Source of the DNA: a virus
Reading direction: 5' to 3' (one strand)
IMG/VR virus record: IMGVR_UViG_3300045988_175656
Length of the DNA: 64,000 nucleotides
Shown here in pieces: positions 14,130-28,829 of the stretch. Position 1 is the first letter of the stretch. Each line of letters opens with the position of its first letter. A program made the position numbers and the translations under genes. The notes beneath the pieces were generated by a model, which did not search any database, was not told the DNA's origin, and saw nothing but the letters and a program-made list of their open reading frames with translations.

Positions 14130-14648
14130 ATGGCTAATATTAAAAATAAAATAAATGAACCACGAATTAATGACGAAATTTGTGGTGTTGAAACAGTTAG
14201 AATTGTTGGAGACAACATTGAAAGTCGTGAAATTTCTCTTAGAGAAGCTAAGAGAATTGCAAGCAATTTGGAACTGGATTTAGTTGAAATTAACGGAAAT
14301 GTCAACCCACCTATTGTTAAAGTGGTAGACTATTCAAAATATATGTTTGAACTAAAAAAAGCATTAAAGAATAAAAATAAGAAAAATTGTGTTTTGAAAG
14401 AAATACAGTTAAGTACAAACATATCATCTAATGACCTTAACACAAAGGTCAGAAAAGCAAAAGAATTTATTGAGGATGGTAATAAGGTAAAAGTTGTTTT
14501 AACAATGAAAGGGCGTGAATTAGGACGTAGAGAAGATTCTAAGAAATCGTTATTGACTTTTATTGTTGAAATGGATGAAGTAGCTGTACCTGAGTCACTA
14601 CCCAGAGATGAAGGAAATAAGTGTACTGTTATTTTAAAGAAAAAATAA
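14130..14648 (+). CDS. infC: translation initiation factor IF-3 homologue
   Basis: INDEICGVETVRIVGDN..LDLVEIN..PPIVKVVDYSKYMFE (N domain) and KEIQLSTNISSNDLNTKVRKAKEFIEDGNKVKVVLTMKGRE (C domain). Confidence 0.85.
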   Translation: MANIKNKINEPRINDEICGVETVRIVGDNIESREISLREAKRIASNLELDLVEINGNVNPPIVKVVDYSKYMFELKKALKNKNKKNCVLKEIQLSTNISSNDLNTKVRKAKEFIEDGNKVKVVLTMKGRELGRREDSKKSLLTFIVEMDEVAVPESLPRDEGNKCTVILKKK

Positions 14649-14662
14649 ATTTTAATTAATAT

Positions 14663-15553
14663 ATGGCTTTAATTGTAGATTGCAAATCATCAAGTTTATA
14701 TTGGAATCGTAATAATGTTACAATGTTATATTTTGATGATATTAAAAAGTATGATATACTTACACCGACAGAAGAATATGAATTATTTGAAAAAATAAAG
14801 TTTGGTACTCCATCGGAAAAAGTAAAAGCGAGAGAAAAAATAATACAATGTAATCAACGATTTATTGTATCAGCAGCAAGAAGATGGTCAACATATAACA
14901 ATCTTCCTGATTTAATCAATGAAGCAAACATTGGATTGATGAAAGCCATTGATAATTTTGACCATACAATTAATAAAAGGTTTTTAACTTATGCAATATG
15001 GTGGATTCGCAAAGAGTTGAATGCATATTTAATAACAAAGGAAAATGTTGTAAAAACAAAAAATGCACATAAAATATATACTTCAGCAAATAAAGTTAGA
15101 AACGAATTTTATTCACGTGAAGGTAGATACCCAACCACTGAAGAAATAAAAGAATTAATTTATAAAAATTATAATTATGATATTCGTCATAATGAAGATT
15201 TATATGAGTTAAGAGTTTCATCAATTGATGAAACCTATTCTAATGATGGTGATGATGCAAGTTTTACAATGGAAGATAATAGTGAATATGCAATGGTTTC
15301 TTCAAGTTGTAACATTGAAGAAAATATTGAGAAAGACTATGAAAAAAGTTTTGTAGAATCATTATTGGTAACATTAAATGACAGAGAACAAGAAATAATT
15401 AAATTGTTATATGGCATTAATGAAGTTCGAGAGTTAAGTATTGATGAAGTTGCAGATAAATTGAATATGTCTCGTGAGAGAGTAAGACAATTAAAGTTTG
15501 CAATTCTTGATAAATTGAAAAAAGAGATGGAAGAGCTAAGAATAGCTATATAA
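14663..15553 (+). CDS. RNA polymerase sigma-70 family factor
   Basis: region 2: EANIGLMKAIDNFD, FLTYAIWWIRKEL; region 4.2: SIDEVADKLNMSRERVRQLKFAILDKLKKE. Confidence 0.85.
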   Translation: MALIVDCKSSSLYWNRNNVTMLYFDDIKKYDILTPTEEYELFEKIKFGTPSEKVKAREKIIQCNQRFIVSAARRWSTYNNLPDLINEANIGLMKAIDNFDHTINKRFLTYAIWWIRKELNAYLITKENVVKTKNAHKIYTSANKVRNEFYSREGRYPTTEEIKELIYKNYNYDIRHNEDLYELRVSSIDETYSNDGDDASFTMEDNSEYAMVSSSCNIEENIEKDYEKSFVESLLVTLNDREQEIIKLLYGINEVRELSIDEVADKLNMSRERVRQLKFAILDKLKKEMEELRIAI

Positions 15554-16022: not shown

Positions 16023-16123
16023 ATTATATAAAACATTTTATATATAAATATCTAAATTAGATTAATAACATATTTTAATAGAAAAAAATTCGATAAATAT
16101 TTGGTAAGTTCAATATTAAGTTG

Positions 16124-16133
16124 TATATTTGCA
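16124..16133 (+). promoter_or_regulatory. Bacteroidota-type promoter
   Basis: tatatttgca, with TTTG at 16100-16103 (20-nt spacer). Confidence 0.6.
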
Positions 16134-16198
16134 ATGTCATTAGAAATAATGATAAAGAGATAAAGAAAAATAAGCAATAATTTAAAAAGTTTTCTGTT

Positions 16199-17851
16199 AT
16201 GACACAAAATTTATTTTTAGCAAATTTAGGTAAACATGCAGCACAAACAGCTAATGGTGCAGTAAGTAATTCAACAACTGGTCGTCTGTTAGTTGACCAA
16301 TTTGCAAAAGCAGGTGCAGCAAAGGGAAGAAATATTCAAGAAGTATTTGCTGACCAATCAGCTATATGGGGTGAGGATGCATTAGGTGCATTACGTTTTG
16401 CATTCTATTTGCGTATGATTACTCGTAAAACAAAGTTGTTTGGTGGAGAACAAACTGAAACTGTTCAACGAGGACAAGGTAATCAAGATGAAGCTTTAAA
16501 GCGTATGCTTTGGGTGGCTTTGTATCATCCTGAAACATTTTATAAAAACTTGTGGATTGTTCCACTTGTCGGTTCTTGGAAAGATTTGTGGATTTTACTT
16601 ACAATGTCTGATGAATTGAAAAAGGAAGAGTTTTTCAAAACAATGGCTGAAGGTATCAATGATGAAAATCAAAAAGGTCTGGTATTGAAATATTTACCTC
16701 GTATTCGCTCAAATAAGAAATGTGTTTCAGAATGGGCAATTAAGACTAATCAATTGGCTAAGGAATTTTGTAATTTTATTGGCTGGAAAGCTGAACATTA
16801 CCGTAAATTTAAGTCAACAGGTATTGCACATAAGTTCCAACAACTAATGTGTGGCGGATTATATGATAACATTGATTTTAATCAAATCCCTGGTCGTGCA
16901 TTGTCTATTATGTTGGCAAATGGTGGAAAATGGCTAAAAAATCACAATCTTGAAACTAAATATCAAGAATGGATTGAAAAACAACCAGTAGCCAAATTTA
17001 CAGGTTTTGTTTATGAACTTGGAAAACAAGTTCCATCAGTAAACAATTACATGACGAAGCCATTGTCATATATTCAAAAAATGACAATTGACAAACAATT
17101 TGATGGGTTAATCAAATTGGCAAAATCAGATAATGGTGGAATTAAAGGCAATGTGTGGTGTTGTCTTGATACTTCAGGCTCTATGAATACAAGCATTCAT
17201 GGTTTGAAAGATGTGAGATGTTGTGATATTGCTAATTCATTGGCAGTTTATTTTTCAACTTTAAATGAAGGTGCATTTCATAAGAGTGTATTAGCATTTG
17301 ATAATACAAGTAAACATTACAAATTGTCAGGTACATTTACTGATATGATGTCTAATCTTCCTCGTGTTGGATGTGGTGGTACGAACTTTCAAGGTGCTAT
17401 TGATGAAATTCTTCGTGTAAGAAGAAGTAATCCTAAAATTCCATTGGAAGATTACCCAAAAACATTGCTGGTAATATCAGATATGCAATTTAACCCAACT
17501 AGCAATAGTGGGTATTGGGGTTACAGCAATCGTAAATCATCAAATGCTGAAGTTTCCACAAATTATGAGGAATCCAAAAGAAAACTTCTTCAGGCATTCC
17601 CAAAAGAATTTGTTGATGAAATGAAGTTTATATGGTGGCATGTAACTTCTCAATATAAAGATTTCCCATCAAGTATTGATGACCCAGGAACATACATGTT
17701 CTCAGGTTTTGATGGGGCTGTTGTTAGTTTACTTCTTGGTGGAGATGCTACTGTTGTAGATGAAAAAACAGGTGAAACTCGTCAACTTTCAATGGAAGAA
17801 ATGGTTCAAAAGGCTTTGACACAAGAATTGTTATTGCAATTGAAGTTGTAG
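16199..17851 (+). CDS. TROVE/DUF2828-like helical domain plus vWA domain protein (Ro60-like architecture)
   Basis: N-terminal TANGAVSNSTTG..LRFAFYLRMITR..GSWKDLW pattern; C-terminal vWA with MIDAS-like CCLDTSGSM and LLVISDMQFN. Confidence 0.55.
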   Translation: MTQNLFLANLGKHAAQTANGAVSNSTTGRLLVDQFAKAGAAKGRNIQEVFADQSAIWGEDALGALRFAFYLRMITRKTKLFGGEQTETVQRGQGNQDEALKRMLWVALYHPETFYKNLWIVPLVGSWKDLWILLTMSDELKKEEFFKTMAEGINDENQKGLVLKYLPRIRSNKKCVSEWAIKTNQLAKEFCNFIGWKAEHYRKFKSTGIAHKFQQLMCGGLYDNIDFNQIPGRALSIMLANGGKWLKNHNLETKYQEWIEKQPVAKFTGFVYELGKQVPSVNNYMTKPLSYIQKMTIDKQFDGLIKLAKSDNGGIKGNVWCCLDTSGSMNTSIHGLKDVRCCDIANSLAVYFSTLNEGAFHKSVLAFDNTSKHYKLSGTFTDMMSNLPRVGCGGTNFQGAIDEILRVRRSNPKIPLEDYPKTLLVISDMQFNPTSNSGYWGYSNRKSSNAEVSTNYEESKRKLLQAFPKEFVDEMKFIWWHVTSQYKDFPSSIDDPGTYMFSGFDGAVVSLLLGGDATVVDEKTGETRQLSMEEMVQKALTQELLLQLKL

Positions 17852-17870
17852 AGATTAGTCTTTAATTTTA

Positions 17871-17898
17871 AGAGGGAGAGAAGCAAAAATCTCCCTCT
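17871..17898 (+). terminator. rho-independent terminator
   Basis: agagggaga..tctccctct 9-bp GC-rich stem followed by ttttt. Confidence 0.65.
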
Positions 17899-17910
17899 TT
17901 TTGTTAAAAA

Positions 17911-18621
17911 ATGAAAATTATGAATATAATCGAAAAAATAGATAAAAGATTTGCTATTAATTCAAATTATAATGAAACATTTGATAAGTTTGCAATAGCA
18001 TGTTATGATTTACATGATAATGTAAATCAAAAATATGATAACAATCCTTATTCTTTACATTTGAGAATGGTAACTAATATGTTGCCAATTGTTTTTAATG
18101 ATGCGTGGGAGTGTGGTTTTATCATTAATAATGCGTATGAACAAACTTTATTAAAAGACTATATAAAATGTTTTTACTCTGCATTATTGCATGATTCAAT
18201 TGAAGATGCAAGACTTACATATAACGATGTAAAAAAAATGGTTTCTTTTTATAATTCATTTTGTTTTTCTTGTTATGATGATGAAGAGATGCGAACATTT
18301 CATTATATGTTAATGATTGAACCTGAAGATGTTGCTGATATTGTTTATGCTGTAACAAATGAAAAAGGTAAAAATCGTTCAGAACGAGCAAATGAAAAGT
18401 ATTATCAAGGAATTAGAGAAAACAAACTTGCTGTTATTGTGAAAATTTGTGATAGGCTAGCTAATGCTCTCTACTCAAAATTAATTAATAGTAGAATGCT
18501 TGATGTTTATAAAAAAGAACATGAACATTTTATAAACTCAGTTATTGAGGATGATAATAGTGAATTTTATAAAAAAATTGAAGCACATTTTACTAAAATA
18601 TACAATGATGAATTAATATGA
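17911..18621 (+). CDS. HD hydrolase, RelA/SpoT-type (alarmone-hydrolase-like)
   Basis: HLRMV.. and ALLHDSIEDARLTYNDV match the SpoT/MESH1 HD signature. Confidence 0.55.
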   Translation: MKIMNIIEKIDKRFAINSNYNETFDKFAIACYDLHDNVNQKYDNNPYSLHLRMVTNMLPIVFNDAWECGFIINNAYEQTLLKDYIKCFYSALLHDSIEDARLTYNDVKKMVSFYNSFCFSCYDDEEMRTFHYMLMIEPEDVADIVYAVTNEKGKNRSERANEKYYQGIRENKLAVIVKICDRLANALYSKLINSRMLDVYKKEHEHFINSVIEDDNSEFYKKIEAHFTKIYNDELI

Positions 18622-20177
18622 AAAAAATATTTACTCTATCAGAAAAAGCTTCATTAGAATATAGTGCAGCTATATGTAGAATTGGCGAAGTAAAGCCAAT
18701 TAAAGGCTCTGAATTTTTAGGACAAACAATTGTGTTTGGTCAGTCATTAGTTGTTAGAAAAGATGAAATGAAAGAAGGCGATATTGTCATATATTGTCCT
18801 ATTGAAACTATTCTTAACAAAGATTTTTTATCTGCTAATAATCTTTATGAAATGGGCGAAAGAAAACGAAATGCTAATTTCGAAGAAGTTCAAAAGTTAT
18901 ATGAAGAAGGTAAAGAAGAAGAAGCTAAATCTAAAGTGGGCTTTTTTAATAAACATGGGCGTATTAAATTATTAACATTAAGAAATACACCATCAGTAGG
19001 TTTTATATTTAAACCAGAAAATTTATTGAAGTGGAAACCTAATTTGGATTTATCTGATATTGAGTCTCATATTAATGAACAATTTGACACAATTGATGAT
19101 GAATTATTTATTAAAGTATATGTTCCATATACCCCACCACAACAACAGCCCTCTGGTGATAGAAAGCTCAGAAAACGCAATAAAAAGATAAAGAGAATGA
19201 GTAGAATGGTTGAAGGTGAATTTTCATTTCATTTTGATACCAATCAATTTAACAATAATGTGTGGAGATTTTCGCCAAACGATATTGTAACAATATCTCT
19301 TAAAGAACATGGTACATCTGCAATTTTTGCTAATATTTTAGTGAAACATCCAATTGTATTGACTCCTGTTCAACGGATAATTAATAAACATATTAAAAAA
19401 ACAATAAGAAATACATCTATTACTTTTGGCAAAAGTAAAAATAAAAATATTTCTAATAGTTGTTATAAAAAACTTCATATGTTAGAAAAACATATAATAC
19501 CATCATATACTTTAAAGTATGGAAATGTTTATTCTTCAAGAGGTGTTATTAAAAATGAGTTTATTAACCAAAACGTTACAAGCGGATTTTATAAAACAGA
19601 TGTATGGGGAGAATATAATAAATTAATCTCTCCTTATATTGAAAAAGGAATGTCACTTTACGGAGAAATTGTAGGATATGTATCAGGTTCACAAAAAATG
19701 ATACAAAAGTCTTATGATTATGGTTGTATGGAAGGTGAAAACTATCTTATGATTTATCGTATAACAACAAAAGATAAAGATGGGGTTAAAAAGGAATGGA
19801 ATGTAACTGATGTAGAAAAGTGGACTAAAAATTTATTAAAAAAACATCCTGAACTAAAGAAAAATATTCACCCAATTAAGATTTTATATCATGGTACATT
19901 AGCGGACCTTTATCCTGAAATATCAACAACTGACCATTGGCATGAAAATATATTAGAAGCTATGAAAGCTGATAAAATGCACTTTGGAATGGAAGAAGAT
20001 GAACCTTATTGTAAAAATAAAGTTCCAAGAGAAGGAATTGTTATTAGAATTGATAATGATAAAAAACCTGAAGCTTTTAAATTGAAATGTTTAAAGTTTT
20101 ATCAAAGAGAACGAAAAATGATTGATAAAGGCGAAGTGGATATTGAGATGGTACAAGGCTATACAGAGGAAAACTAA
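18618..20177 (+). CDS. ATP-dependent RNA ligase, DRB0094/Rnl5-like
   Basis: N-terminal PIKGSEFLGQTIVFGQSLVVRKDEMKEGDIVIYCPIE, GRIKLLTLRNTPSVGF, lysine-nucleotidylation motif KEHGTS; ATGA overlap with the HD gene. Confidence 0.7.
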   Translation: MKKIFTLSEKASLEYSAAICRIGEVKPIKGSEFLGQTIVFGQSLVVRKDEMKEGDIVIYCPIETILNKDFLSANNLYEMGERKRNANFEEVQKLYEEGKEEEAKSKVGFFNKHGRIKLLTLRNTPSVGFIFKPENLLKWKPNLDLSDIESHINEQFDTIDDELFIKVYVPYTPPQQQPSGDRKLRKRNKKIKRMSRMVEGEFSFHFDTNQFNNNVWRFSPNDIVTISLKEHGTSAIFANILVKHPIVLTPVQRIINKHIKKTIRNTSITFGKSKNKNISNSCYKKLHMLEKHIIPSYTLKYGNVYSSRGVIKNEFINQNVTSGFYKTDVWGEYNKLISPYIEKGMSLYGEIVGYVSGSQKMIQKSYDYGCMEGENYLMIYRITTKDKDGVKKEWNVTDVEKWTKNLLKKHPELKKNIHPIKILYHGTLADLYPEISTTDHWHENILEAMKADKMHFGMEEDEPYCKNKVPREGIVIRIDNDKKPEAFKLKCLKFYQRERKMIDKGEVDIEMVQGYTEEN

Positions 20178-20192
20178 CCTGGCAAGGTCGTA

Positions 20193-20254
20193 GCGAATGG
20201 GAATAAATTGTTTATTCTGTTTGGTGAAAGTGGGTTCAACTCCCACCATTCGCT
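20193..20254 (+). ncRNA. tRNA-like element (acceptor stem and T-arm, no D-arm, atypical central hairpin)
   Basis: GCGAATG (20193-99) pairs with CATTCGC (20247-53); T-arm GTGGG-TTCAACT-CCCAC (20230-46); central hairpin GAATAAA-TTG-TTTATTC (20201-17); only 62 nt, no encoded CCA. Confidence 0.5.
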
Positions 20255-20410
20255 CTATTTAATCTATTATGTTGAACAAGGGTTTAAAGTAAACTATACA
20301 AACCAGAAACCCTGAACCTTTAAGCAATTATTGGTAACAGACCATTGGGTAATTCCATAGGAGTGCTGTTAGGTATAGTATATTAGATTTTCATAATTTA
20401 AATTGATAAT

Positions 20411-20608
20411 ATGGCATTTAAGTTTAGTTTTGATAAATATATGGAAGATGTATATTCTCAGTTAGAATGTAATGCATCAAATGAATATGAAAAAATGTAT
20501 ATTACTTTTACATATTCAAAGGAAGAAGTAGAAAACAATATAGATTACTTTAAAAGATGTTATAACAAAAATATATCAGCTTATAAAGCACTAACATTTA
20601 TGAAATAA
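20411..20608 (+). CDS. hypothetical protein
   Basis: ORF track; one nt before the next gene. Confidence 0.5.
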   Translation: MAFKFSFDKYMEDVYSQLECNASNEYEKMYITFTYSKEEVENNIDYFKRCYNKNISAYKALTFMK

Positions 20609-20609
20609 T

Positions 20610-21200
20610 ATGAACAAAATTAAAATTGTGTTTGCTTCACATAACAAACACAAAATAGATGAAATTAAGCAAATTCTTGGTGATAGATTTGAAATTACCA
20701 GTTTGACTGATTTAGGTGTAACAGAAGAAATTCCAGAAACAGGAAACAGTTATTTTGAAAACGCAAATATAAAAGCAAGTTATGTTTACAATAAATTTGG
20801 TTTAAATTGTTTTGCTGATGATAGTGGTATTGAATTTTCAGGTTTATTAGGCGAACCAGGCATATTTTCAGCTCGCTGGGCAGGCGAAAATGCCACAGGC
20901 GAGGATTTGGTTGAAAAGTCGTTAAAATTGCTTGGTGACTCTTTAAATAGGTCTGCAATACAACTTACAACGATAGTAGTTTATATTGATGGAGAAATGC
21001 ATATGTTTAATGGAAGTTTAAGTGGGTTTATCACTTATCAACCATTTGGCTGTAATGGGTTTGCTTATGATAAAATATTTGTACCTAATAACTGTGAAAA
21101 GACTTTAGCTGAAATGACAAATGAAGAAAAGAATGTTATTTCTCATAGAGGTATAGCAGTTAGAAAATTAAAAGAGTTTCTTTTGAATAAAATATGTTAA
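20610..21200 (+). CDS. rdgB: non-canonical purine NTP pyrophosphatase (RdgB/HAM1)
   Basis: IVFASHNKHKIDEI, DDSGIEFSGLLGEPGIFSARW, GFAYDKIFVP, SHRGIA. Confidence 0.8.
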   Translation: MNKIKIVFASHNKHKIDEIKQILGDRFEITSLTDLGVTEEIPETGNSYFENANIKASYVYNKFGLNCFADDSGIEFSGLLGEPGIFSARWAGENATGEDLVEKSLKLLGDSLNRSAIQLTTIVVYIDGEMHMFNGSLSGFITYQPFGCNGFAYDKIFVPNNCEKTLAEMTNEEKNVISHRGIAVRKLKEFLLNKIC

Positions 21201-21313
21201 AAAAGATTAGAAAATTCATTCAAAGTGAGGATTTTGCAATTTATTTTAGTATATTTGCATTACTGATTACATTTGCACTTGTTTACATAACATATATTAA
21301 ACCAACATTATGA
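21194..21313 (+). CDS. possible 39-aa membrane peptide
   Basis: hand-translated MLKKIRKFIQSEDFAIYFSIFALLITFALVYITYIKPTL; ATGA overlap with the next gene; contains a promoter box, so may be non-coding. Confidence 0.25.
   Translation: MLKKIRKFIQSEDFAIYFSIFALLITFALVYITYIKPTL
21250..21259 (+). promoter_or_regulatory. Bacteroidota-type -7 promoter box
   Basis: tatatttgca about 50 nt upstream of ATG 21310. Confidence 0.45.
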
Positions 21314-21875: not shown

Positions 21876-22343
21876 ATGATTAGTGATAAATTAGACAATT
21901 TGATTGCAGAAGCAATGAAAAACCATGAAACTGAAAAGTTAGAAGTTTTAAGATTAATTAAGACTAAGTTCATGGAGTATAAAACAGCTAAAGCTGGAAA
22001 TGTATTGGATGAACAGACTGAAGCAAGTATATTAATTAAGATGATTTCTCAAAGAGAAGATTCGATTAAACAATATACCAATGCAAAACGTCCTGAATTA
22101 GCTGAACAAGAAGCAAAAGAAATTAATATTATTCAAGAGTTTGCACCAAAACAAGCAACAGATGAAGAAATTGAAAATTTCACAAGTTCTACAATTACAG
22201 CTTATAAATTAACAAAAGAAGAAGGTTATATAATTTCTATGAGAGATATGAAACCAATTATGGAGCTTGTTAAAGCTGAATATCCTATGGCTAATGGGAA
22301 AGTTGTGTCTAAAGTAATGAATAACTATATTAATGGTAAGTAA
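21876..22343 (+). CDS. GatB/YqeY-domain protein
   Basis: N-terminal L..L...AMK....E.L.vLRLI pattern and overall size typical of YqeY. Confidence 0.65.
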   Translation: MISDKLDNLIAEAMKNHETEKLEVLRLIKTKFMEYKTAKAGNVLDEQTEASILIKMISQREDSIKQYTNAKRPELAEQEAKEINIIQEFAPKQATDEEIENFTSSTITAYKLTKEEGYIISMRDMKPIMELVKAEYPMANGKVVSKVMNNYINGK

Positions 22344-22576
22344 TGGCTAAATTTATAGTAGGTAGTATAGGAACAATACTTAGTGTATTGATTATATTGT
22401 TTGGAAGTTCTTTATTAGAAGGTATTATATTATGGGTATCATATCCATCATTAATAAAATTATTTCCAATTTTAGGATGTTATTTACCATTAAGTATATC
22501 ATATTGGAATAGTGCTATGATAATGGCATTATTGAATTTAATAATTGGAACTATTAGTAAATTATGGAAGAAATAA
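22343..22576 (+). CDS. small membrane protein
   Basis: ORF track; three hydrophobic segments. Confidence 0.5.
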   Translation: MAKFIVGSIGTILSVLIILFGSSLLEGIILWVSYPSLIKLFPILGCYLPLSISYWNSAMIMALLNLIIGTISKLWKK

Positions 22577-22788
22577 GTAAATATCCTTATCTTGGAAAGT
22601 TTAGTTTTCCAAATAATGAGGAAATGGCATATGTTGTATTGTTCAATCGTCCTAAAACTGGTATGATTGTTTCAAGTAACATAGTTGGTAATACATTATT
22701 AGAAATTGGTAGCTATTCTGAAGAATGGGATGAAAATTCATTCACTTATTTACCAAAAGAAATTGATGTAAGATTGAATAATGATTAA
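22564..22788 (+). CDS. hypothetical protein
   Basis: ORF track. Confidence 0.5.
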   Translation: MEEISKYPYLGKFSFPNNEEMAYVVLFNRPKTGMIVSSNIVGNTLLEIGSYSEEWDENSFTYLPKEIDVRLNND

Positions 22789-22799
22789 ATAAAAATAAA

Positions 22800-23336
22800 A
22801 TGAATATGAATTGTTGTAGTAATGAAAGCAAAGCAACTTTGGCTTATGTAAATGATTGTGGTTCAAGTGAAATTTTAACCAAAGAAGTGGACTTGTCAAG
22901 TAAAGAAAGTGTTTTGAAAAGACATAAAGAATTAGAACAAGTACAAAGAAATTTGTATGATAAAATGGAGAATCTAGGAAAGAAATATACAGAATTGTTT
23001 AAGACAGAATTAATTAATAGAAATATTAAAGGCAAATGTTTTGTCTCTGATAAAAATATTAATAGTTGTTATGGTCCAATAAACGATGTTAAGTCCAAAT
23101 ATGTTGAATATTTTAGAGTGACAGAAATTAAATATGTATATTATAATTCAATTACATTAGTTTGCGATTTTTTTAATAAATATGAAGATGAAAATTCAAA
23201 GAAAGCGTATCATTTTGGTCATGGTGTAATTGAAGTACTTCATTCAGCTCTTGATGAAAAGAATGAAATTACACTTCAAGAATTTAAGCAAAAACGTGAA
23301 GAATATTTTAATGAATATAAAGAATATGTTCAATGA
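22800..23336 (+). CDS. hypothetical protein
   Basis: ORF track. Confidence 0.55.
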   Translation: MNMNCCSNESKATLAYVNDCGSSEILTKEVDLSSKESVLKRHKELEQVQRNLYDKMENLGKKYTELFKTELINRNIKGKCFVSDKNINSCYGPINDVKSKYVEYFRVTEIKYVYYNSITLVCDFFNKYEDENSKKAYHFGHGVIEVLHSALDEKNEITLQEFKQKREEYFNEYKEYVQ

Positions 23337-23809
23337 GAGTAAATAAAGATTATGTATTTTTCTGGGGAAGCGAATTTTCTAATTGGTTTCCCTCAGAATT
23401 TCAGTTAGAAGGAAAGAAGTTCTATAATGCAGAACAATATTTCATGTATAAAAAAGCTAAATTTTTTAACGATGAAGAAATGGCTATGGCTATTTTGTGT
23501 ACTGATGACCCTAAAGTAGCTAAGAAATTAGGACGTAAAGTTAAAAATTTTAAAGATATTGCTTGGTCAAAAGTTCGTAAAGAATATATGAAAGAAGCTT
23601 GTAGAGCTAAATTTACACAAAATTTAGATTTAAAAGAGAAACTTCTTAGTCATAAAACACAAACTTATGTTGAAGCTTCTCCTTATGATATTATTTGGGG
23701 TGTTGGATTAAGTGAGGACAATCCACAAATAAATAATAAGGAGAATTGGTTAGGAAAAAATCTTTTAGGAGAAGTTTTAACTGAATTAAGAGATGAACTT
23801 AGTAAATAA
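23333..23809 (+). CDS. NADAR (YbiA/DUF1768) family protein
   Basis: FFWGSEFSNWFPS, YNAEQYFMYKKAKFF, IIWGVGL; ATGA overlap upstream. Confidence 0.7.
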   Translation: MRVNKDYVFFWGSEFSNWFPSEFQLEGKKFYNAEQYFMYKKAKFFNDEEMAMAILCTDDPKVAKKLGRKVKNFKDIAWSKVRKEYMKEACRAKFTQNLDLKEKLLSHKTQTYVEASPYDIIWGVGLSEDNPQINNKENWLGKNLLGEVLTELRDELSK

Positions 23810-24622: not shown

Positions 24623-25096
24623 TTAAAATTCGTTCCAAGTAAGAACATTTTTACTTATTTTATCATCAACAGTGTTCTTATCATAAAAATTATTATCAAT
24701 ATATTCTTTATCATAAAAGTTATCTATTAATGATGTTAAATCTAAGCTGATGGTTGTTGCATCATTTAATGTGAATACCATAGTATTAGTATCATTATTA
24801 AACAACACATTAGATAAAAATTTATCGACAAGATTTATTGTTTTTGTTGGTTGATTTGAATAAGTAATTTCTAAAGAGTTATTAACTGAATTATATTTTA
24901 TGTCACTAACACCTTGACTCATTCCACCACCATTAACAATCATTTCGTATATTACACGGTAAAATGATACATAATTATCATTTAATTGTATATCATCTCC
25001 ACTAATATCTTTTAGTTGATTTAATGTGCTATTAAGTGGGCTTGGCGTTGTGAATCCCCAGCTAGCAAGTGGATTAGATTTACTTATTTCTCTCAT
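24623..25096 (-). CDS. tail-fibre-associated protein (distal module or assembly factor)
   Basis: last gene of the minus-strand fibre operon; C-terminus LTWNEF parallels LIWGEF of the upstream gene. Confidence 0.4.
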   Translation of the reverse strand: MREISKSNPLASWGFTTPSPLNSTLNQLKDISGDDIQLNDNYVSFYRVIYEMIVNGGGMSQGVSDIKYNSVNNSLEITYSNQPTKTINLVDKFLSNVLFNNDTNTMVFTLNDATTISLDLTSLIDNFYDKEYIDNNFYDKNTVDDKISKNVLTWNEF

Positions 25097-25126
25097 TTTT
25101 GTTTTTTAATTTACATTGAAATATTA

Positions 25127-26344
25127 TTAAAATTCACCCCATATCAAAGATGCTGTTAAACCATTAGCTGTTTTTTCTAAAACAACACCACCTGTTGTTT
25201 CGTCAGGTTGTGGTGCTAATTTTACAGATACACCATTTGCACTTGTTTCTAATGAAGGTGTTGTAGAGTTAATTTTAAGAGCCGCTTTTAAGCCATCGCT
25301 TTCTTTAGTTAAAGTTACATCTCCTTGTGTTGCAGTAATTTTAACATCTGCTTGCAATTCATATGCATTATAAGTCAAATCAACTGTGTTTGTATCAAGC
25401 ACAGTCATTTGAGCAGGAGTTGCCACAAATAAACCATCTGATTTTATTTCCAATGCATTGTTACTTTCAGCAGATTTCTTAACATCAGTTGTTATTTTGT
25501 TAGCTGCAACTGTAACATTTGCTGTTGAGGTGGTATCACCACTTAATGATGGTGTTGGTGGTACATACAAACCATCTGTTTTCCCAACTAATATGTTATC
25601 CCCATCAGTTGTTGATAAATTAACATTTGCTGTAACGTTAACAGTATTAGAAGTTTCAACTGCTGTTAATGTAACAGAACTACTTGATTGAAAAGTATAT
25701 GCTTTATATAAATCGTCAGTTGGCACTACAATGGCTTCATAAGTGATACCACTAGTTGATTCTTCTCTCATAATGAAAACAATACTTGGTTCTGAAATTG
25801 TAGCTGTAATACCACTCCATTCTTTACCAACTATCCATGCATTAAATTCAGCTTGATTTTTGACAAATGTTGCTCCAGCTAAAAATGAATCTTGAAGTAA
25901 ATCAACAGCATCTCCAACATTAGCCCATGCAGTTCCATTATAATATTGTAGTTGTAATGAGCCACTTTCATAAATAGCTTTTATTGTTGAATATAATCCA
26001 CTACCATCATTTATCAATATATTATTTCCAGTTGCAACAGCTTTACTTACCACAACATCAACTGTAATATCTCCGTTGTTATCAATAGTCATATTAGTCG
26101 CATCTCCATTAATACCATTTAATAATGTAACAGTTTTAGTTGTACCATCTGTTTTCGTAAAAGTTGCAACAAGTGCATTGTTATTTGTTGTTATAACAAC
26201 ATCAGTAAAATCTTCACCACCTGCATACCATTTTTTATCTAATAATTGTATGATACCACTATCAGTTTTGAAGTATATGTTACCATCAGTTGTAGCATTC
26301 ACAGGGATTGCATTAGTTCCTTTAAAAAATTTTAAATTCGCCAT
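25127..26344 (-). CDS. tail-fibre-like protein
   Basis: N-terminal KFFKGT..TTDGNIYFKTDSG motif common at fibre N-termini; T/S/N/V-rich beta-like repeats. Confidence 0.55.
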   Translation of the reverse strand: MANLKFFKGTNAIPVNATTDGNIYFKTDSGIIQLLDKKWYAGGEDFTDVVITTNNNALVATFTKTDGTTKTVTLLNGINGDATNMTIDNNGDITVDVVVSKAVATGNNILINDGSGLYSTIKAIYESGSLQLQYYNGTAWANVGDAVDLLQDSFLAGATFVKNQAEFNAWIVGKEWSGITATISEPSIVFIMREESTSGITYEAIVVPTDDLYKAYTFQSSSSVTLTAVETSNTVNVTANVNLSTTDGDNILVGKTDGLYVPPTPSLSGDTTSTANVTVAANKITTDVKKSAESNNALEIKSDGLFVATPAQMTVLDTNTVDLTYNAYELQADVKITATQGDVTLTKESDGLKAALKINSTTPSLETSANGVSVKLAPQPDETTGGVVLEKTANGLTASLIWGEF

Positions 26345-26369
26345 TAATTTTATTTTTATTATTTATTTA

Positions 26370-27227
26370 TTATTTGAAATACATATCATTAATATACATT
26401 GTGACTGATTCACTTTCTGATGAACTACCATTCATTAATATTCCACTTAATTTTTGTATGTTCATACCTGTTGATATAATATCAGAAATAGGTATAATGA
26501 TATGATTCCAGTTTTTAGATTTTAGTTTATTTGTAAAAGATATTTGGTAGTTATATTCTACATTATCCCAACTAATAAATCTTAATTCAAAACCATATGG
26601 TACTTCACTAAACATTGTTATATAAAAATTGTTTAAACCAGCCATGTTTAATGCCCCATTAGGCTCTCCATTAAAGTTAAAAAATAATTGACCTGCACCA
26701 CTTATTTTTTTGATAATAGTTTGACCACCACTAGCAGGAGTGCCATAATCTTCAACTAAAATCTTTCCAATTGGTTCAAACCAAGGTTCTAACGAATAAT
26801 TAACATTTGAGCCTTGGTTGCTGAATATTACTTTTCCACCATTTAATATATCATCAACAGTATGATAATCTATAACAGGTACTTTTCTACCTATTTCTCC
26901 AATTGCTGTATGATATAATCTAAAAGTTGTGTTATCTGGTACTGGTTGCCCTTGATATTCAATAGCACCTTTAATCCAACTTTTAGTATCTAAAAGATAA
27001 GACAATTTATCTGATGTTGTAGTGCCATAAGATTCACCACTAATTTCATCAAGTTTATTATTGATATTATTAATTATTGAATTAAGTTCATTTTCAGTAA
27101 CCCATAGTTTTTTATCACCTAAAAAGCCTTTTAATGTGTCTTTAGTTATGTAAATACTATTGTCATCTTTTTCAGTAATATTGGTATAATTTTCCTCTAA
27201 TCCTTGTAGAAAATGTAAATCTTTCAT
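26370..27227 (-). CDS. tail-fibre-like / receptor-binding protein
   Basis: N-terminal FLQGLEENY..DDNSIYITKDT motif; same operon. Confidence 0.45.
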   Translation of the reverse strand: MKDLHFLQGLEENYTNITEKDDNSIYITKDTLKGFLGDKKLWVTENELNSIINNINNKLDEISGESYGTTTSDKLSYLLDTKSWIKGAIEYQGQPVPDNTTFRLYHTAIGEIGRKVPVIDYHTVDDILNGGKVIFSNQGSNVNYSLEPWFEPIGKILVEDYGTPASGGQTIIKKISGAGQLFFNFNGEPNGALNMAGLNNFYITMFSEVPYGFELRFISWDNVEYNYQISFTNKLKSKNWNHIIIPISDIISTGMNIQKLSGILMNGSSSESESVTMYINDMYFK

Positions 27228-27582: not shown

Positions 27583-27623
27583 CTTTAGCGAAGTTTAGAA
27601 CATTGATAAAAACAAAAATATTT

Positions 27624-28829
27624 ATGAAACTATTAGAGAAAATTATAAATCAAGAAACTTATATGGTTAATTGGGATGAAGTGGCAAAAATACCAGAATT
27701 TGGCGTTTTAAAAAAAACTGAACAGAATCCTAAATGGCATTCAGAAGGAAATGTATGGAATCATACAGTAAATGTGGTAAATGAAATGTATAAATTAGTA
27801 CCATATAACGAATCAGATAAAATATTCTCTGATATGAGACATCAAAGACGTTTAGTTATGGTTGCTGCTGCTTTGTTTCATGATATAGGCAAAGGTGCTA
27901 CAACCAAATGGTCAGATGAAAAGGGTTCATGGACTTCTCCACGTCATGCGCCTGTTGGTGAACAAATCACACGTAGATTGTTATGGGATGAAGATTTTTT
28001 TGTTAGAGAAAAAATATGCTCTTTGGTTAGAAACCATATGAAACCGTTATATATTTATGATTCTGAAACTCCTGTTCGTGATGTAATATTTTTAGCTGAA
28101 GAGCCTATATCTTTTAACAATTTAATTACGTTAAAAATTGCTGATTGTTTAGGCGCAATTCAAACTGAAGAAGATGGATGGAGAGATAAATTAGAATATG
28201 CAAAAGAAATAGCCCAAGACTATAAATGTTTAGAAAATCCTTATAAGTTTTCTAATGAATATAGTCGTTTTGAATTTTTCCATAATCAAAAAATGGAATA
28301 TCCTGTGGATTTGTATAATCCATCTAATGTAGGTAATTTTACAGTATATTTTATGATTGGATTACCTGGTTCAGGCAAAGATACATATATTAAAAACCAT
28401 TTGTCTAATATTCCAACTGTTTGTAGAGACGAAATTCGCACTGAAATTGGTATTAAAGGTGAAAAGCCAATGGGCAATAAAAAGCAAGAAGATGAAGTTA
28501 CTCGTATTCAAAATGAAAGAATTTTGGAATATGCAAGAAAACATCAATCTTTCATTATCAATGCAACTAATTTAAAAAGAATGTATCGTGATGGGTTTAA
28601 ATCAATGTTAGCTCCATACAATGCTCGTATCGAATATGTGTATGTAGAAGCACCTGATTTTAACAAAACACTTGAAAGAAGAAAAGGTACAATACCACAA
28701 GATGTTATTAAAAGAATGAGAGAATATTTTGAATTTCCACGTCCAAATGAAGCTTATGCAATAAGAATTGATGTACAAAGAAATTCAATTTATGGTAAAA
28801 CAACTGATTATGAAGGAAAAGACAAATGA
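27624..28829 (+). CDS. HD phosphoesterase plus P-loop polynucleotide-kinase-like fusion (RNA end-healing enzyme)
   Basis: N-terminal NPKWHSEGNVWNHT..AALFHDIGKG (HD of the CCA-enzyme type); C-terminal GLPGSGKDTY P-loop; start moved to the first ATG. Confidence 0.6.
   Translation: MKLLEKIINQETYMVNWDEVAKIPEFGVLKKTEQNPKWHSEGNVWNHTVNVVNEMYKLVPYNESDKIFSDMRHQRRLVMVAAALFHDIGKGATTKWSDEKGSWTSPRHAPVGEQITRRLLWDEDFFVREKICSLVRNHMKPLYIYDSETPVRDVIFLAEEPISFNNLITLKIADCLGAIQTEEDGWRDKLEYAKEIAQDYKCLENPYKFSNEYSRFEFFHNQKMEYPVDLYNPSNVGNFTVYFMIGLPGSGKDTYIKNHLSNIPTVCRDEIRTEIGIKGEKPMGNKKQEDEVTRIQNERILEYARKHQSFIINATNLKRMYRDGFKSMLAPYNARIEYVYVEAPDFNKTLERRKGTIPQDVIKRMREYFEFPRPNEAYAIRIDVQRNSIYGKTTDYEGKDK

What the first reader, a model, noticed from the sequence alone, without database searches (positions are those of the whole stretch)
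16124..20410. Ro60/TROVE-like vWA protein, SpoT-type HD hydrolase, Rnl5-type RNA ligase and a tRNA-like RNA form one co-directional block: a candidate phage RNA surveillance/repair module
Seen: a promoter box at 16124 is followed by three same-strand ORFs. The first (16199-17851) has a helical N-domain and a vWA domain with a DTSGS MIDAS-like motif. The second (17911-18621) is an HD hydrolase carrying LLHDSIEDA. The third (18618-20177) is an RNA ligase with KEHGTS and an OB-like N-module, and it overlaps the HD gene by ATGA. The block ends in the longest non-coding tract of the window (20178-20410), which opens with a tRNA-like fold. Established: bacterial Ro60 orthologues (Rsr) are TROVE-plus-vWA proteins encoded beside Y RNAs that contain a tRNA-like domain. 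In Salmonella these genes share an operon with the RtcB RNA ligase. Inference: this block may be an analogous module in which an ATP-dependent ligase replaces RtcB and an alarmone-type hydrolase has been added. I am not aware of this combination having been described.
Basis: partly seen in the sequence, partly recalled or inferred. Interest (0 to 1): 0.8.

Follow-up and report, generated by a model that had tools for sequence, protein, structure and literature searches.

The report
Phage Ro60-like RNA-repair operon plus small RNAs
A giant gut phage carries one operon encoding a Ro60-like RNA-binding protein, a SpoT-type hydrolase and an RNA ligase, probably to repair tRNAs damaged by bacterial defences; the tRNA-like RNA behind it is not a conserved partner, but next to it lies a widespread, undescribed structured RNA.

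Summary
The three ORFs, the ATGA overlap, the promoter box and the tRNA-like fold are real. ORF1 (DUF2828 plus vWA with an intact MIDAS) models as a full-length Ro60 fold. ORF2 is a small alarmone hydrolase of the RelA/SpoT (HDxxED) type. ORF3 is an Rnl5-type nick-sealing RNA ligase.

The Ro60-like–ligase pair is adjacent in relatives down to 47-63% identity. The hydrolase is a later insertion, present only at 79% identity or more. Most ~50% relatives have no ligase within 6 kb.

A distant Listeria phage has a parallel island: tRNA array, DUF2828, HDxxED hydrolase, RtcB, NADAR, PF09414 ligase. This supports an RNA/tRNA-repair counter-defence role.

The Y-RNA reading of the tRNA-like element is not supported. 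It is a 62-nt acceptor/T-arm mini-tRNA present only in the closest relatives, absent as a clean ~70-nt indel at 85% identity, and not YrlA-like.

The tract is not the longest in the window. Its second half (20271-20386) is a separate pseudoknotted RNA with strong covariation. It occurs in more than 70 large-phage contigs, usually inside tRNA arrays, and is absent from Rfam.

Verdict: new variant of a known kind, plus an unclassified RNA family.

The parts
16123..16133 (+). Promoter box GTATATTTGCA (contains a Bacteroidetes-type -7 element, TAnnTTTG)
   Evidence: There are 11 copies on the + strand and none on the - strand of the window; those compared with the ORF-free gaps lie inside them. 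It is invariant upstream of ORF1 in six lineages. The next copy, at 21249, bounds the transcription unit.
16199..17851 (+). Ro60-like protein: helical DUF2828 N-domain plus a vWA domain with MIDAS (DTSGS...T395...D428)
   Evidence: Pfam DUF2828, DUF7788 and VWA_2. PHROG 850 'RNA-binding protein', E 3e-56. AlphaFold2 model with pLDDT 84 and pTM 0.86. Foldseek full-length matches to 9kop, 9nen and 9l5y Ro60. tblastn to a mycobacteriophage Ro-like protein, E 4e-10.
17911..18621 (+). Small alarmone hydrolase (RelA/SpoT-homologue HD domain, HDxxED)
   Evidence: Homologues carry PF13328 HD_4 and are named (p)ppGpp hydrolases. The family profile hits Mesh1 3nqw at E 1e-8 and P. aeruginosa SAH 6yvc. 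H35, H50, H94, D95, E98, D99 and D181 are invariant. The gene is present only in relatives of 79% identity or more.
18618..20177 (+). Rnl5-type ATP-dependent RNA ligase (N-terminal OB plus nucleotidyltransferase domain, with insertions)
   Evidence: Pfam PHA02142 OB and PF09414. TIGR02306 DraRnl, N-terminus only. Foldseek top 13 matches are NgrRnl, E 2e-13, target TM 0.6-0.66, against T4 Rnl2 at 6e-5. K229/H231/G232, E350/G353 and K488/K490 are invariant.
20192..20254 (+). Armless tRNA-like element: 8-bp acceptor stem, hairpin 20201-20217, T arm 20230-20246; no anticodon arm
   Evidence: Rfam tRNA 27.1 bits, below the gathering threshold. The fold is the minimum-free-energy and centroid structure, z -1.96. 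Kept in L087 with one compensatory change; absent as a ~70-nt indel in L082/L083.
20271..20386 (+). Pseudoknotted structured RNA (model R1). Pseudoknot GGGTTT 20280-85 with AAACCC 20307-12. Outer helix 20293-99 with 20373-79. CAG 20304-06 with CTG 20366-68. Variable hairpin closed by ACC/GGT. Conserved core around 20335-20365.
   Evidence: The 25-mer at 20337-20361 has exact matches in 71 IMG/VR contigs. In the covariation count, 16 of 20 pairs show compensatory changes and 89% of cells are paired, against 36-50% in slid controls. The covariance model scores 114.5 bits here, and this is the only hit in the window. No Rfam match. In 46 of 69 loci it lies within 1 kb of tRNA genes.
20411..21200 (+). 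orf65 and Ham1/ITPase, the last genes of the same transcription unit
   Evidence: Ham1p_like, E 9e-55. No promoter box or predicted + strand terminator lies between 16124 and 21249. The order is kept in L087 and L089.
21876..23809 (+). Neighbouring YqeY (21876-22343) and NADAR (23333-23809) genes
   Evidence: Pfam YqeY E 5e-29 and NADAR E 2e-46. Both are syntenic in all close relatives. NADAR also lies in the Listeria phage island and is 51% identical.
27603..28829 (+). HD-Pnk-type end-healing enzyme candidate (HD phosphoesterase plus P-loop polynucleotide kinase)
   Evidence: Pfam HD E 1.5e-9 and AAA_33 E 2e-17. It lies about 4.3 kb downstream of the ligase in L082. A 907-aa homologue, P0140, fuses HD, AAA_33 and the Rnl5 OB/ligase.

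Best explanation
The block is one transcription unit. It is driven by a repeated phage promoter box at 16123 and runs to about 21200. It encodes a tRNA/RNA damage-repair, counter-defence module.

Shown: ORF1 has the Ro60 fold, a helical TROVE-like domain plus vWA/MIDAS. ORF2 is a RelA/SpoT-type small alarmone hydrolase. ORF3 is an Rnl5-type nick-sealing ligase. An HD-Pnk end-healing gene lies 7.4 kb downstream.

Inferred mechanism: host defences cut tRNA anticodon loops or pyrophosphorylate the tRNA 3' CCA end (toxSAS enzymes such as CapRel or FaRel2). The Ro60-like protein captures damaged or misfolded RNA ends. The hydrolase strips 3'-pyrophosphate from tRNA, or degrades (p)ppGpp/(p)ppApp. 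HD-Pnk makes 3'-OH and 5'-phosphate ends. The Rnl5 ligase seals the nick.

The non-coding tract is not a Y RNA locus. It is a two-element RNA cassette of the kind found in phage tRNA arrays. The first element is a degenerate acceptor/T-arm mini-tRNA. I infer that it serves as an RNase P/RNase Z processing handle. The second is an independent, widely distributed pseudoknotted small RNA of unknown function, co-transcribed with the operon.
For: Fold and family assignments.

Single promoter family and operon bounds.

Conserved adjacency: Ro60-like and ligase genes are adjacent in L087, L082/83, L088, L089, L084, L085, L090, L086 and L031, spanning 98% down to 47% identity.

Independent parallel island: in Listeria phage LP-064 the order is tRNA array, DUF2828, HDxxED HD, RtcB, NADAR, PF09414 ligase, phosphoesterase. 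Leptolyngbya phage has DUF2828 with an HD_4 hydrolase 3.3 kb away.

tRNA association of the DUF2828 family: the gene sits next to tRNA genes or aberrant tRNA-like or YrlA-like RNAs in many distant phages.

HD-Pnk: the gene is present in the window and an HD-Pnk-Rnl5 fusion exists among homologues.

Literature: SAH enzymes remove tRNA 3'-pyrophosphate (bioRxiv 10.1101/2021.04.30.441581). A phage Ro60 binds Y-like RNAs (PMC12135203). Bas63 gp130, which by my inference belongs to this DUF2828 family, is Ro60-like, lies upstream of tRNA genes and counters a defence system (bioRxiv 10.1101/2024.10.10.617714). TROVE proteins are listed among jumbo-phage RNA-repair components (PMC7824862).

The RNA cassette.
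Against: No biochemical evidence is available.

In most ~50%-identity relatives (L003-L036) no ligase lies within 6 kb of DUF2828. In several GenBank phages the neighbours are unrelated to RNA repair. The linkage is therefore facultative.

The hydrolase is a recent insertion and could act on alarmones only.

There is no sequence-level match to TROVE or to Ro60 in the PDB. Ring closure of the model was not inspected. The TM-scores to Ro60 are modest (0.29-0.55).

The only reported phenotype for a probable family member, Bas63 gp130, is against a defence system with a predicted phosphodiester-hydrolysing PHP domain that the authors propose degrades DNA.

The processing-handle role of the mini-tRNA is pure inference. 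L082 keeps the downstream RNA without it.
Confidence: 0.55

Rival explanations
1. One reading: the tRNA-like RNA at 20192-20254 is the Y-RNA-like partner of the Ro60-like protein. It forms an RNP that tethers the ligase or hydrolase, as YrlA does with Rsr.
For: The element has a tRNA-like acceptor and T arm, is co-transcribed with the Ro60-like gene, and is kept in L087 with a compensatory change. Its 5' strand AGCGAATG resembles the bacterial Ro-binding motif GNCGAAN0-1G reported in PMC4201824. Distant DUF2828 genes do have YrlA-like or aberrant tRNA-like RNAs beside them: L092 at 45 bits (E 7e-7) and L037 at 39 bits.
Against: The element is present only in the window, L001/L002 and L087. It is cleanly absent from L082/L083, which keep all three genes. 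It is also absent from L084, L085, L086, L089 and L090. There is no YrlA hit at E up to 10 here, nor at E up to 1 in five close relatives. It has no D arm. Its ends lie on the acceptor stem, unlike YrlA. The motif match is imperfect, with A in place of the first G.
Confidence: 0.12
2. The adjacency is incidental. These are independent auxiliary early genes in a hot-spot for insertions. The DUF2828 protein is an anti-defence factor unrelated to RNA repair, the hydrolase only resets host alarmone levels, and the ligase works alone with HD-Pnk.
For: The region is an insertion hot-spot. LAGLIDADG ORFs and an intein interrupt it in L084 and L088, and the hydrolase and the RNA tract come and go. Most ~50% relatives lack a nearby ligase. 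Bas63 gp130 counters 'ppl', a defence system with a predicted phosphodiester-hydrolysing PHP domain that the authors propose degrades DNA. Contexts in Bacillus, Staphylococcus and Fusobacterium phages show no ligase.
Against: The DUF2828-ligase pair persists from 98% to 47% identity while the surroundings change. The ATGA-coupled hydrolase and ligase share one promoter with ORF1. The same set of functions recurs in a Listeria phage, with RtcB.
Confidence: 0.25
3. The tRNA-like element is simply a decaying tRNA gene or a recombination scar. It was carried in with the neighbouring array-type RNA and has no function of its own.
For: It has lost the anticodon arm and scores below the tRNA threshold. 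It behaves as a presence/absence indel. The neighbouring R1 RNA normally lives inside tRNA arrays. A loose descriptor finds equally good candidates in shuffled sequence.
Against: The acceptor and T arm are perfectly paired and identical in the window and L087. The hairpin changed by a compensatory substitution rather than decaying.
Confidence: 0.35

Closest known systems
Bacterial rsr-yrlBA-rtcBA RNA repair operon (Salmonella) and Ro60/Y RNA RNPs
   Same: A Ro60-fold protein with vWA/MIDAS is encoded in one operon with an RNA ligase, in a tRNA-related context.
   Different: The ligase is an ATP-dependent Rnl5 type, not RtcB. No RtcB was found in the window. RtcA and RtcR were not searched for. 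No YrlA-like RNA was detected. The protein belongs to the DUF2828 branch, not Pfam TROVE. A small alarmone hydrolase is added.
Phage Ro60 homologues: Thermus phage phiLo phiRo60 with Yrl1/Yrl2 (PMC12135203), mycobacteriophage Ro-like proteins (PMC4201824), and Bas63 gp130 (bioRxiv 10.1101/2024.10.10.617714)
   Same: Best structural matches. tblastn link to mycobacteriophage Douge at E 4e-10. Felixounaviruses, the genus I take Bas63 to belong to (my own knowledge, not shown by a tool result), carry a homologue directly upstream of a tRNA array.
   Different: In those phages the partner RNAs or tRNAs are adjacent to the gene and no ligase or hydrolase is in the operon. Here the adjacent genes are enzymes and the RNA is not conserved.
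Listeria phage LP-064 (Pecentumvirus) RNA-repair island
   Same: DUF2828 protein, HDxxED HD protein, RNA ligase and NADAR lie in one co-directional cluster.
   Different: That island sits directly behind a tRNA array and uses RtcB plus an Rnl2-like PF09414 ligase and a calcineurin-type phosphoesterase. The proteins are only 23% (DUF2828) to 51% (NADAR) identical to those of the window.
Naegleria gruberi / Deinococcus radiodurans Rnl5 ligases and bacterial HD-Pnk end-healing enzymes
   Same: N-terminal OB plus nucleotidyltransferase architecture and the motif I lysine. An HD-Pnk gene lies nearby, and an HD-Pnk-ligase fusion exists among homologues.
   Different: The protein is 519 aa against 340 aa, with large insertions. 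Sequence similarity is detectable only in the OB domain.
Small alarmone hydrolases (Mesh1, P. aeruginosa SAH, ATfaRel)
   Same: HD_4 family, the HDxxED motif and the conserved metal and catalytic residues.
   Different: There is an N-terminal extension and a ~30-aa insertion. The gene sits in a phage RNA-repair operon. The substrate is unknown.
T4 stable RNAs rnaC/rnaD (species 1 and 2) in the T4 tRNA cluster
   Same: They are non-tRNA small RNAs embedded in a phage tRNA array and, as far as I know, still without an assigned function. rnaC ends in a tRNA-like T arm.
   Different: Model R1 does not match them. There is no sequence similarity to any GenBank phage.

Membership tests
Ro60 / TROVE (Rsr) proteins | Helical HEAT-repeat (TROVE) domain followed by a vWA domain, overall Ro60 fold | tested here: met
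   AlphaFold2 model with pLDDT 84. The top three Foldseek PDB matches span ~560 columns: 9kop (E 3e-7, TM 0.48/0.55), 9nen and 9l5y_B. All later matches cover the vWA domain only.
Ro60 / TROVE (Rsr) proteins | Closed ring with a central cavity for single-stranded RNA ends | not testable with these tools
   Model coordinates could not be inspected. The modest TM-scores leave ring geometry open.
Ro60 / TROVE (Rsr) proteins | Sequence membership in Pfam TROVE (PF05731) or similarity to solved Ro60 chains | tested here: not met
   No TROVE hit at E up to 1 in any of 35 members. Only four weak vWA_Ro60 hits, best E 0.014. Neither phmmer nor the family profile found anything in the PDB. An indirect link exists: tblastn to a mycobacteriophage 'Ro-like RNA binding protein', E 4e-10.
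Ro60 / TROVE (Rsr) proteins | MIDAS motif in the vWA domain | tested here: met
   D324, S326, S328, T395 and D428 are invariant in 35 sequences.
Ro60 / TROVE (Rsr) proteins | Adjacent Y RNA gene (Ro-binding stem plus tRNA-like D/T domain) | tested here: not met
   No YrlA or Y_RNA match in the window tract at E up to 10, nor in L084, L085, L087, L090 or L031 at E up to 1. The tRNA-like element is not conserved. YrlA-like hits do occur beside distant DUF2828 genes.
Small alarmone hydrolase (RelA/SpoT homologue, HD_4) | HD domain with the HDxxED motif and the conserved His/Asp metal ligands | tested here: met
   H94-D95-x-x-E98-D99 plus H35, H50 and D181 are invariant. Ten of 23 family members hit PF13328. 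The family profile hits Mesh1, SAH and Rel hydrolase domains at E 1e-8 to 1e-4. The window protein alone does not reach the Pfam thresholds.
Small alarmone hydrolase (RelA/SpoT homologue, HD_4) | Hydrolysis of a 3'-pyrophosphate from (p)ppGpp, (p)ppApp or tRNA | not testable with these tools
   Requires an enzyme assay.
Rnl5 RNA ligases (NgrRnl/DraRnl) | N-terminal OB domain fused to an adenylyltransferase domain, with no C-terminal domain | tested here: met
   Pfam PHA02142 OB (residues 17-68) and PF09414 (315-488). Foldseek matches NgrRnl across its full length, E 2e-13, target TM 0.60-0.66, well ahead of Rnl2, Rnl1 and Rnl3.
Rnl5 RNA ligases (NgrRnl/DraRnl) | Covalent nucleotidyltransferase motifs (motif I lysine, motifs IV and V) | tested here: met
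   K229-x-H231-G232, E350...G353 and K488-x-K490 are invariant in 24 sequences.
tRNA | Cloverleaf with D, anticodon and T arms, and a score above the Rfam/ARAGORN thresholds | tested here: not met
   ARAGORN finds none. Rfam gives 27.1 bits against a threshold of 29, with the anticodon arm reduced to 8 nt.
YrlA / bacterial Y RNA | T and D arms flanking a closed acceptor-like stem, with the 5'/3' ends forming the Ro-binding helix that carries GNCGAAN0-1G | tested here: not met
   No covariance-model match. No D arm. The ends lie on the acceptor stem. The motif is only approximate (AGCGAATG).
Any Rfam 15 family (for the RNA at 20271-20386) | Covariance-model match | tested here: not met
   No match at E up to 10 here or at E up to 1 in five other instances. 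T4 rnaC and rnaD are not matched by model R1.

The most novel reading that the evidence does not exclude
The ~115-nt pseudoknotted RNA at 20271-20386 is a new class of phage functional RNA that normally lives in tRNA arrays. In this megaphage lineage it has been recruited behind the Ro60-like/SAH/Rnl5 operon as that system's RNA partner. It would be a structurally new Y-RNA analogue, or a decoy or ribozyme acting on damaged tRNA. Together they would form a previously undescribed phage RNP that reverses both nuclease damage and pyrophosphorylation damage to tRNA.
Probability: 0.1. Interest if true: 0.85.

Novelty: new variant of a known kind. Interest (0 to 1): 0.6.

Why it matters
Ro60-like DUF2828 proteins occur in hundreds of cultured phages: 586 GenBank records, including Felix O1-like, P100/A511-like, T4-like and jumbo phages. 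Their function is essentially untested.

Here the gene is operon-linked to an Rnl5 ligase and a SpoT-type hydrolase. A parallel island exists in Listeria phages with RtcB instead. Together these give a concrete, testable hypothesis: the family is the substrate-capture component of phage tRNA repair, and phage small alarmone hydrolases may undo tRNA 3'-pyrophosphorylation by toxSAS defences such as CapRel.

Separately, the tract contains an unclassified, strongly covarying pseudoknotted RNA. It is shared by many large gut and rumen phages and is embedded in their tRNA arrays. That makes it a candidate new RNA family whose function is open (ribozyme, decoy or regulator).

Tried and rejected
1. 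The tRNA-like element as YrlA or another Rfam family. Only a sub-threshold tRNA hit was found, and there are no YrlA hits in close relatives.

2. Conservation of the tRNA-like element. An exact 24-mer search found only the two 98% contigs. Alignment shows it in L087 but deleted in L082/L083.

3. A home-made acceptor/T-arm descriptor as a significance test. It was rejected because, with G-U pairs allowed, it finds about one hit per shuffled window.

4. Sequence-level homology of ORF1 to Ro60. phmmer and profile searches against the PDB found nothing, and there are no Pfam TROVE hits. Only fold search and an indirect tblastn link worked.

5. The R1 RNA as a partner of DUF2828. The model found no copy within ±6 kb of DUF2828 in 67 other loci. 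No window protein is a recurrent neighbour of R1 except an OmpA-domain protein, in five loci. Flanking-ORF clustering gave only clade-specific neighbours.

6. R1 as T4 rnaC/rnaD, as something in GenBank phages (blastn, no match), or as a bacterial RNA (only six MAG contigs, which look like mis-binned phage contigs). A full-text search for the core sequence gave no paper.

7. The ligase profile against PDB by sequence.

8. Burroughs and Aravind 2016 (RNA repair systems) could not be read because the paper is not held. Whether that paper already lists DUF2828-Rnl or DUF2828-RtcB neighbourhoods remains unchecked.

9. The sigma-70 promoter scan is uninformative here: 33 found against 38.8 expected.

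Full report
**Source.** The window is AT-rich. Its only nucleotide matches in GenBank phages are short stretches of Prevotella Lak megaphages. Near-identical (98%) copies of the region lie on IMG/VR contigs of 232 and 380 kb. The window is therefore part of a Lak-like megaphage.

**Observation.** The three + strand ORFs are as described, and the second and third overlap by ATGA.
- ORF1 (550 aa) matches Pfam DUF2828 at its N-terminus and DUF7788/VWA_2 at its C-terminus. It also matches PHROG 850 'RNA-binding protein' at E 3e-56. In 35 homologues the MIDAS residues D324, S326, S328, T395 and D428 are invariant.
- ORF2 (236 aa) gives only weak HD hits on its own. Its homologues at 40-50% identity are 170-200-aa proteins carrying PF13328 (HD_4) and are named (p)ppGpp hydrolases. 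A family profile hits Drosophila Mesh1 (E 1e-8), Pseudomonas SAH and Rel hydrolase domains. The HDxxED signature and the His/Asp ligands are invariant.
- ORF3 (519 aa) has the PHA02142 OB fold and the PF09414 ligase domain. Motif I (K229-x-H-G), motif IV and motif V residues are invariant. An AlphaFold2 model (pLDDT 82) matches Naegleria Rnl5 over its full length (E 2e-13, target TM 0.60-0.66). That is far ahead of T4 Rnl2, Rnl1 and archaeal Rnl3.

**Promoter and operon.** TATATTTG at 16124 is the core of GTATATTTGCA. That 11-mer occurs 11 times on the + strand and never on the - strand; the copies I compared with the ORF-free gaps (16123, 27484, 31048) lie inside them. It is invariant upstream of ORF1 in six lineages, within an otherwise variable spacer. 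The next copy is at 21249. No + strand terminator is predicted in between. The transcription unit therefore probably runs through ORF1-3, the non-coding tract, orf65 and a Ham1/ITPase gene.

**Non-coding tract length.** The claim that 20178-20410 is the longest non-coding tract is wrong. At least three ORF-free gaps are longer.

**Is ORF1 Ro60-like?** Yes, at the level of fold. The model (pLDDT 84, pTM 0.86) has three best PDB matches that span both domains: the Thermus phage phiLo Ro60/TROVE crystal structure (E 3e-7, TM 0.48/0.55), human Ro60, and the phiLo Ro60-Yrl2 complex. Every later match covers the vWA domain only. Sequence methods do not reach TROVE or Ro60 directly. However, tblastn links the protein to a mycobacteriophage 'Ro-like RNA binding protein' at E 4e-10.

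The family is large: 586 GenBank phage records. They include Felixounaviruses. I take Bas63 to be a Felixounavirus from my own knowledge, not from a tool result. A 2024 preprint reports that Bas63 gp130 is structurally Ro60-like, sits upstream of the tRNA genes and counters the 'ppl' defence system. I confirmed the same layout in phage finno, where the DUF2828 gene is followed 165 nt later by about 20 tRNAs. The Ro60 resemblance of this family is therefore already noted in the literature. TROVE proteins are also listed as RNA-repair components of some jumbo phages (PMC7824862).

**Gene order.** Within the close clade the backbone is HSP70, DnaJ, NUDIX, IF3, sigma factor, (a - strand ORF), DUF2828, [HD], Rnl5, YqeY, NADAR, HD-Pnk.
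- The DUF2828-Rnl5 pair is adjacent in L087 (91%), L082/83 (85%), L088 (82%), L089 (79%), L085 (71%), L090 (69%) and L086 (63%).
- In L084 (80%) one LAGLIDADG-containing ORF lies between them.
- In L031 (47%) a ~450-nt stretch that reads as one small ORF lies between them.
- The hydrolase is present only at 79% identity or more, so it is a later insertion into an older pair.
- In most other ~50% relatives (L003-L036) no ligase lies within 6 kb, although IF3 and the sigma factor are often still upstream.

The linkage is therefore real but restricted to a clade. An HD-Pnk-type gene (HD plus AAA_33) is present in the window at 27603-28829. One ligase homologue is a 907-aa fusion of HD, AAA_33 and the ligase. 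This fits an end-healing plus sealing pathway.

**Independent support from a distant phage.** In Listeria phage LP-064 (Herelleviridae) the order is:
- a tRNA array;
- DUF2828;
- an HTH protein;
- a 143-aa HD protein with LLHDIFEDT (hhalign against the hydrolase family, E 2.8e-4);
- RtcB (E 2e-59);
- NADAR;
- a PF09414 RNA ligase;
- a calcineurin-type phosphoesterase.

These are supported. The window has no RtcB. Leptolyngbya phage Lbo-JY46 also has an HD_4 protein 3.3 kb from its DUF2828 gene. Other phages (Bacillus PBC2, Staphylococcus 6ec, Fusobacterium phiKSUM) show no ligase nearby.

**Link of the DUF2828 family to tRNA.**
- Among the distant IMG/VR loci, many have a tRNA within a few hundred bases of the gene on the same strand. 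These include L038-L042, L057, L060, L062, L065 and L069-L076.
- Several have aberrant tRNA-like or YrlA-like hits directly beside it. Examples are Enterococcus phage EfV12-phi1 (YrlA 45 bits, E 7e-7, and a second hit at 34 bits), L037 (39 bits), an insert-bearing tRNA in Vibrio phage BUCT194, L039, L044 and L053.

The Ro60/Y-RNA analogy is therefore reasonable for the family as a whole.

**The tRNA-like element in the window.** It does not behave like a partner RNA. It is a 62-63-nt mini-tRNA at 20192-20254. It has an 8-bp acceptor, one hairpin and a canonical T arm, but no anticodon arm. Rfam tRNA scores 27.1 bits, below threshold, and ARAGORN finds nothing. It is present in the window, L001/L002 and L087, where the hairpin changed by a compensatory A-T to G-C substitution. 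It is cleanly missing as a ~70-nt indel in L082/L083, which keep all three genes. L084 and L089 lack the whole spacer. L085 and L086 have a terminator-like hairpin instead. It does not match YrlA, and neither does anything in five close relatives.

Acceptor/T-arm minihelices are the minimal substrates of RNase P, RNase Z and the CCA-adding enzyme (established knowledge). I therefore consider a processing-handle role most likely. A decaying tRNA is the main alternative.

**The second half of the tract.** This is a different object. Positions ~20271-20386 are almost identical between the window and L082. The 25-mer at 20337-20361 has exact matches in 71 IMG/VR contigs, mostly 100-380 kb. An alignment of 22 diverse copies shows four helices:
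- a pseudoknot (GGGnnU with AnnCCC);
- a long outer helix;
- a CAG/CUG helix;
- a helix closing a hairpin of variable length.

In the covariation count, 16 of 20 pairs have compensatory changes. 89% of cells are paired, against 36-50% when partners are slid. No shuffle reaches the observed values. The invariance of the core is partly a consequence of how the copies were found.

A covariance model scores the window copy at 114.5 bits. It finds no other copy in the window, and none within 6 kb of DUF2828 in 67 other loci. The RNA is always intergenic and co-oriented with its neighbours, and it has no constant protein neighbour. In 46 of 69 loci it lies within 1 kb of tRNA genes on the same strand, often occupying a slot in the array.

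It matches no Rfam 15 family, no GenBank phage, and not T4 rnaC or rnaD. In GTDB it occurs only in six MAG contigs that look like mis-binned phage contigs. No paper prints its core sequence.

I conclude that the tract is a small tRNA-array-type RNA cassette that happens to lie behind the repair operon in this sub-lineage.

**Mechanism (inferred).** After infection, host anticodon nucleases or toxSAS enzymes damage tRNAs.
- The Ro60-like protein captures damaged or misfolded RNAs. Its vWA/MIDAS domain may recruit partner proteins.
- The small alarmone hydrolase removes 3'-pyrophosphate from tRNA. This activity has been shown for MESH1 and ATfaRel. Alternatively it lowers alarmone levels.
- HD-Pnk heals the broken ends.
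- The Rnl5 ligase seals nicks in the folded tRNA.

None of these steps has been tested for these proteins.

**Novelty.** The components and the concept (phage Ro60-like proteins, phage RNA-repair modules) are known. An operon joining a DUF2828-type Ro60-like protein to an Rnl5 ligase and a SpoT-type hydrolase, and its parallel with an RtcB-based island in Listeria phages, is to my knowledge undescribed. I could not read Burroughs and Aravind 2016 to exclude prior mention. I rate the finding as a new variant of a known kind. The pseudoknotted RNA is a candidate new RNA family, recorded as a separate lead.

Noticed in passing
window 20271-20386 (+); also L082, L087, L095-L169: A ~110-200-nt pseudoknotted RNA with very strong covariation and a conserved core GACAGACCATTGGGTAATTCCATAGGAG. 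It occurs in more than 70 large-phage contigs, usually inside tRNA arrays. It matches no Rfam family, no GenBank phage and no paper. It is a candidate new RNA family of unknown function.
   Followed up: partly
window + strand: 12025, 16123, 21249, 27484, 31048, 35631, 37363, 39213, 46158, 56030, 62424: The 11-mer GTATATTTGCA occurs 11 times, on the + strand only; the copies checked lie in ORF-free gaps. It is probably the promoter consensus of one temporal gene class of this megaphage. A phage sigma-70-family gene lies at 14663-15553.
   Followed up: partly
window 27603-28829 (+); P0140: An HD-Pnk-type gene (HD plus P-loop kinase). A 907-aa homologue elsewhere fuses HD, AAA_33 and the Rnl5 ligase. 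Relative to L082, the window has an extra - strand cassette (24623-27227, three ORFs) between the NADAR cluster and HD-Pnk.
   Followed up: partly
L172/L176 (Listeria phage LP-064, NC_041862.1 about 26.4-35.4 kb): An extended RNA-repair island behind a tRNA array: DUF2828, an HDxxED HD protein, RtcB, NADAR, a PF09414 RNA ligase and a calcineurin-type phosphoesterase.
   Followed up: partly
L084 8603-10132; L088 5221-6048 and 6709-8743: In close relatives the block is invaded by mobile elements. A LAGLIDADG-containing ORF lies between DUF2828 and the ligase. In another relative a LAGLIDADG ORF follows DUF2828 and the ligase gene is split, with Intein_splicing hits.
   Followed up: no
L007 4004-4116; L037 7687-7920; L040 2672-2787; L075 3104-3576; L077 12160-12571; L094 3657-3771: tRNA-like sequences of 100-125 nt with good acceptor and T arms but 30-50-nt inserts, several containing CAGCAA. 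ARAGORN missed them. Some lie directly beside DUF2828 genes. They may be intron-bearing tRNAs or Y-like RNAs.
   Followed up: no
L092 3315-3422 and 3648-3761 (Enterococcus phage EfV12-phi1, unannotated gap upstream of the DUF2828 gene): Two YrlA-like hits (34 and 45 bits, E 1e-3 and 7e-7) lie in an 830-nt unannotated gap. These are probably unannotated Y-like RNA genes of a cultured phage.
   Followed up: no
L111 1343-1559; L109 4653-5077: A permuted-tmRNA-like hit (43 bits, just below threshold) and an ARAGORN tmRNA lie just upstream of copies of the pseudoknotted RNA.
   Followed up: no
window 14130-15553 (+): Phage-encoded IF3 and a sigma-70-family factor lie immediately upstream of the block. 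The IF3-sigma-DUF2828 order is conserved in many ~50% relatives, even where the ligase is absent.
   Followed up: no
L170 2909-3047 (T4 rnaC): T4 species 1 RNA ends in a tRNA-like T arm and acceptor-like 3' strand (GGGTTCGAATCCCGG...). This is a precedent for tRNA-like stable RNAs in phage tRNA clusters.
   Followed up: no
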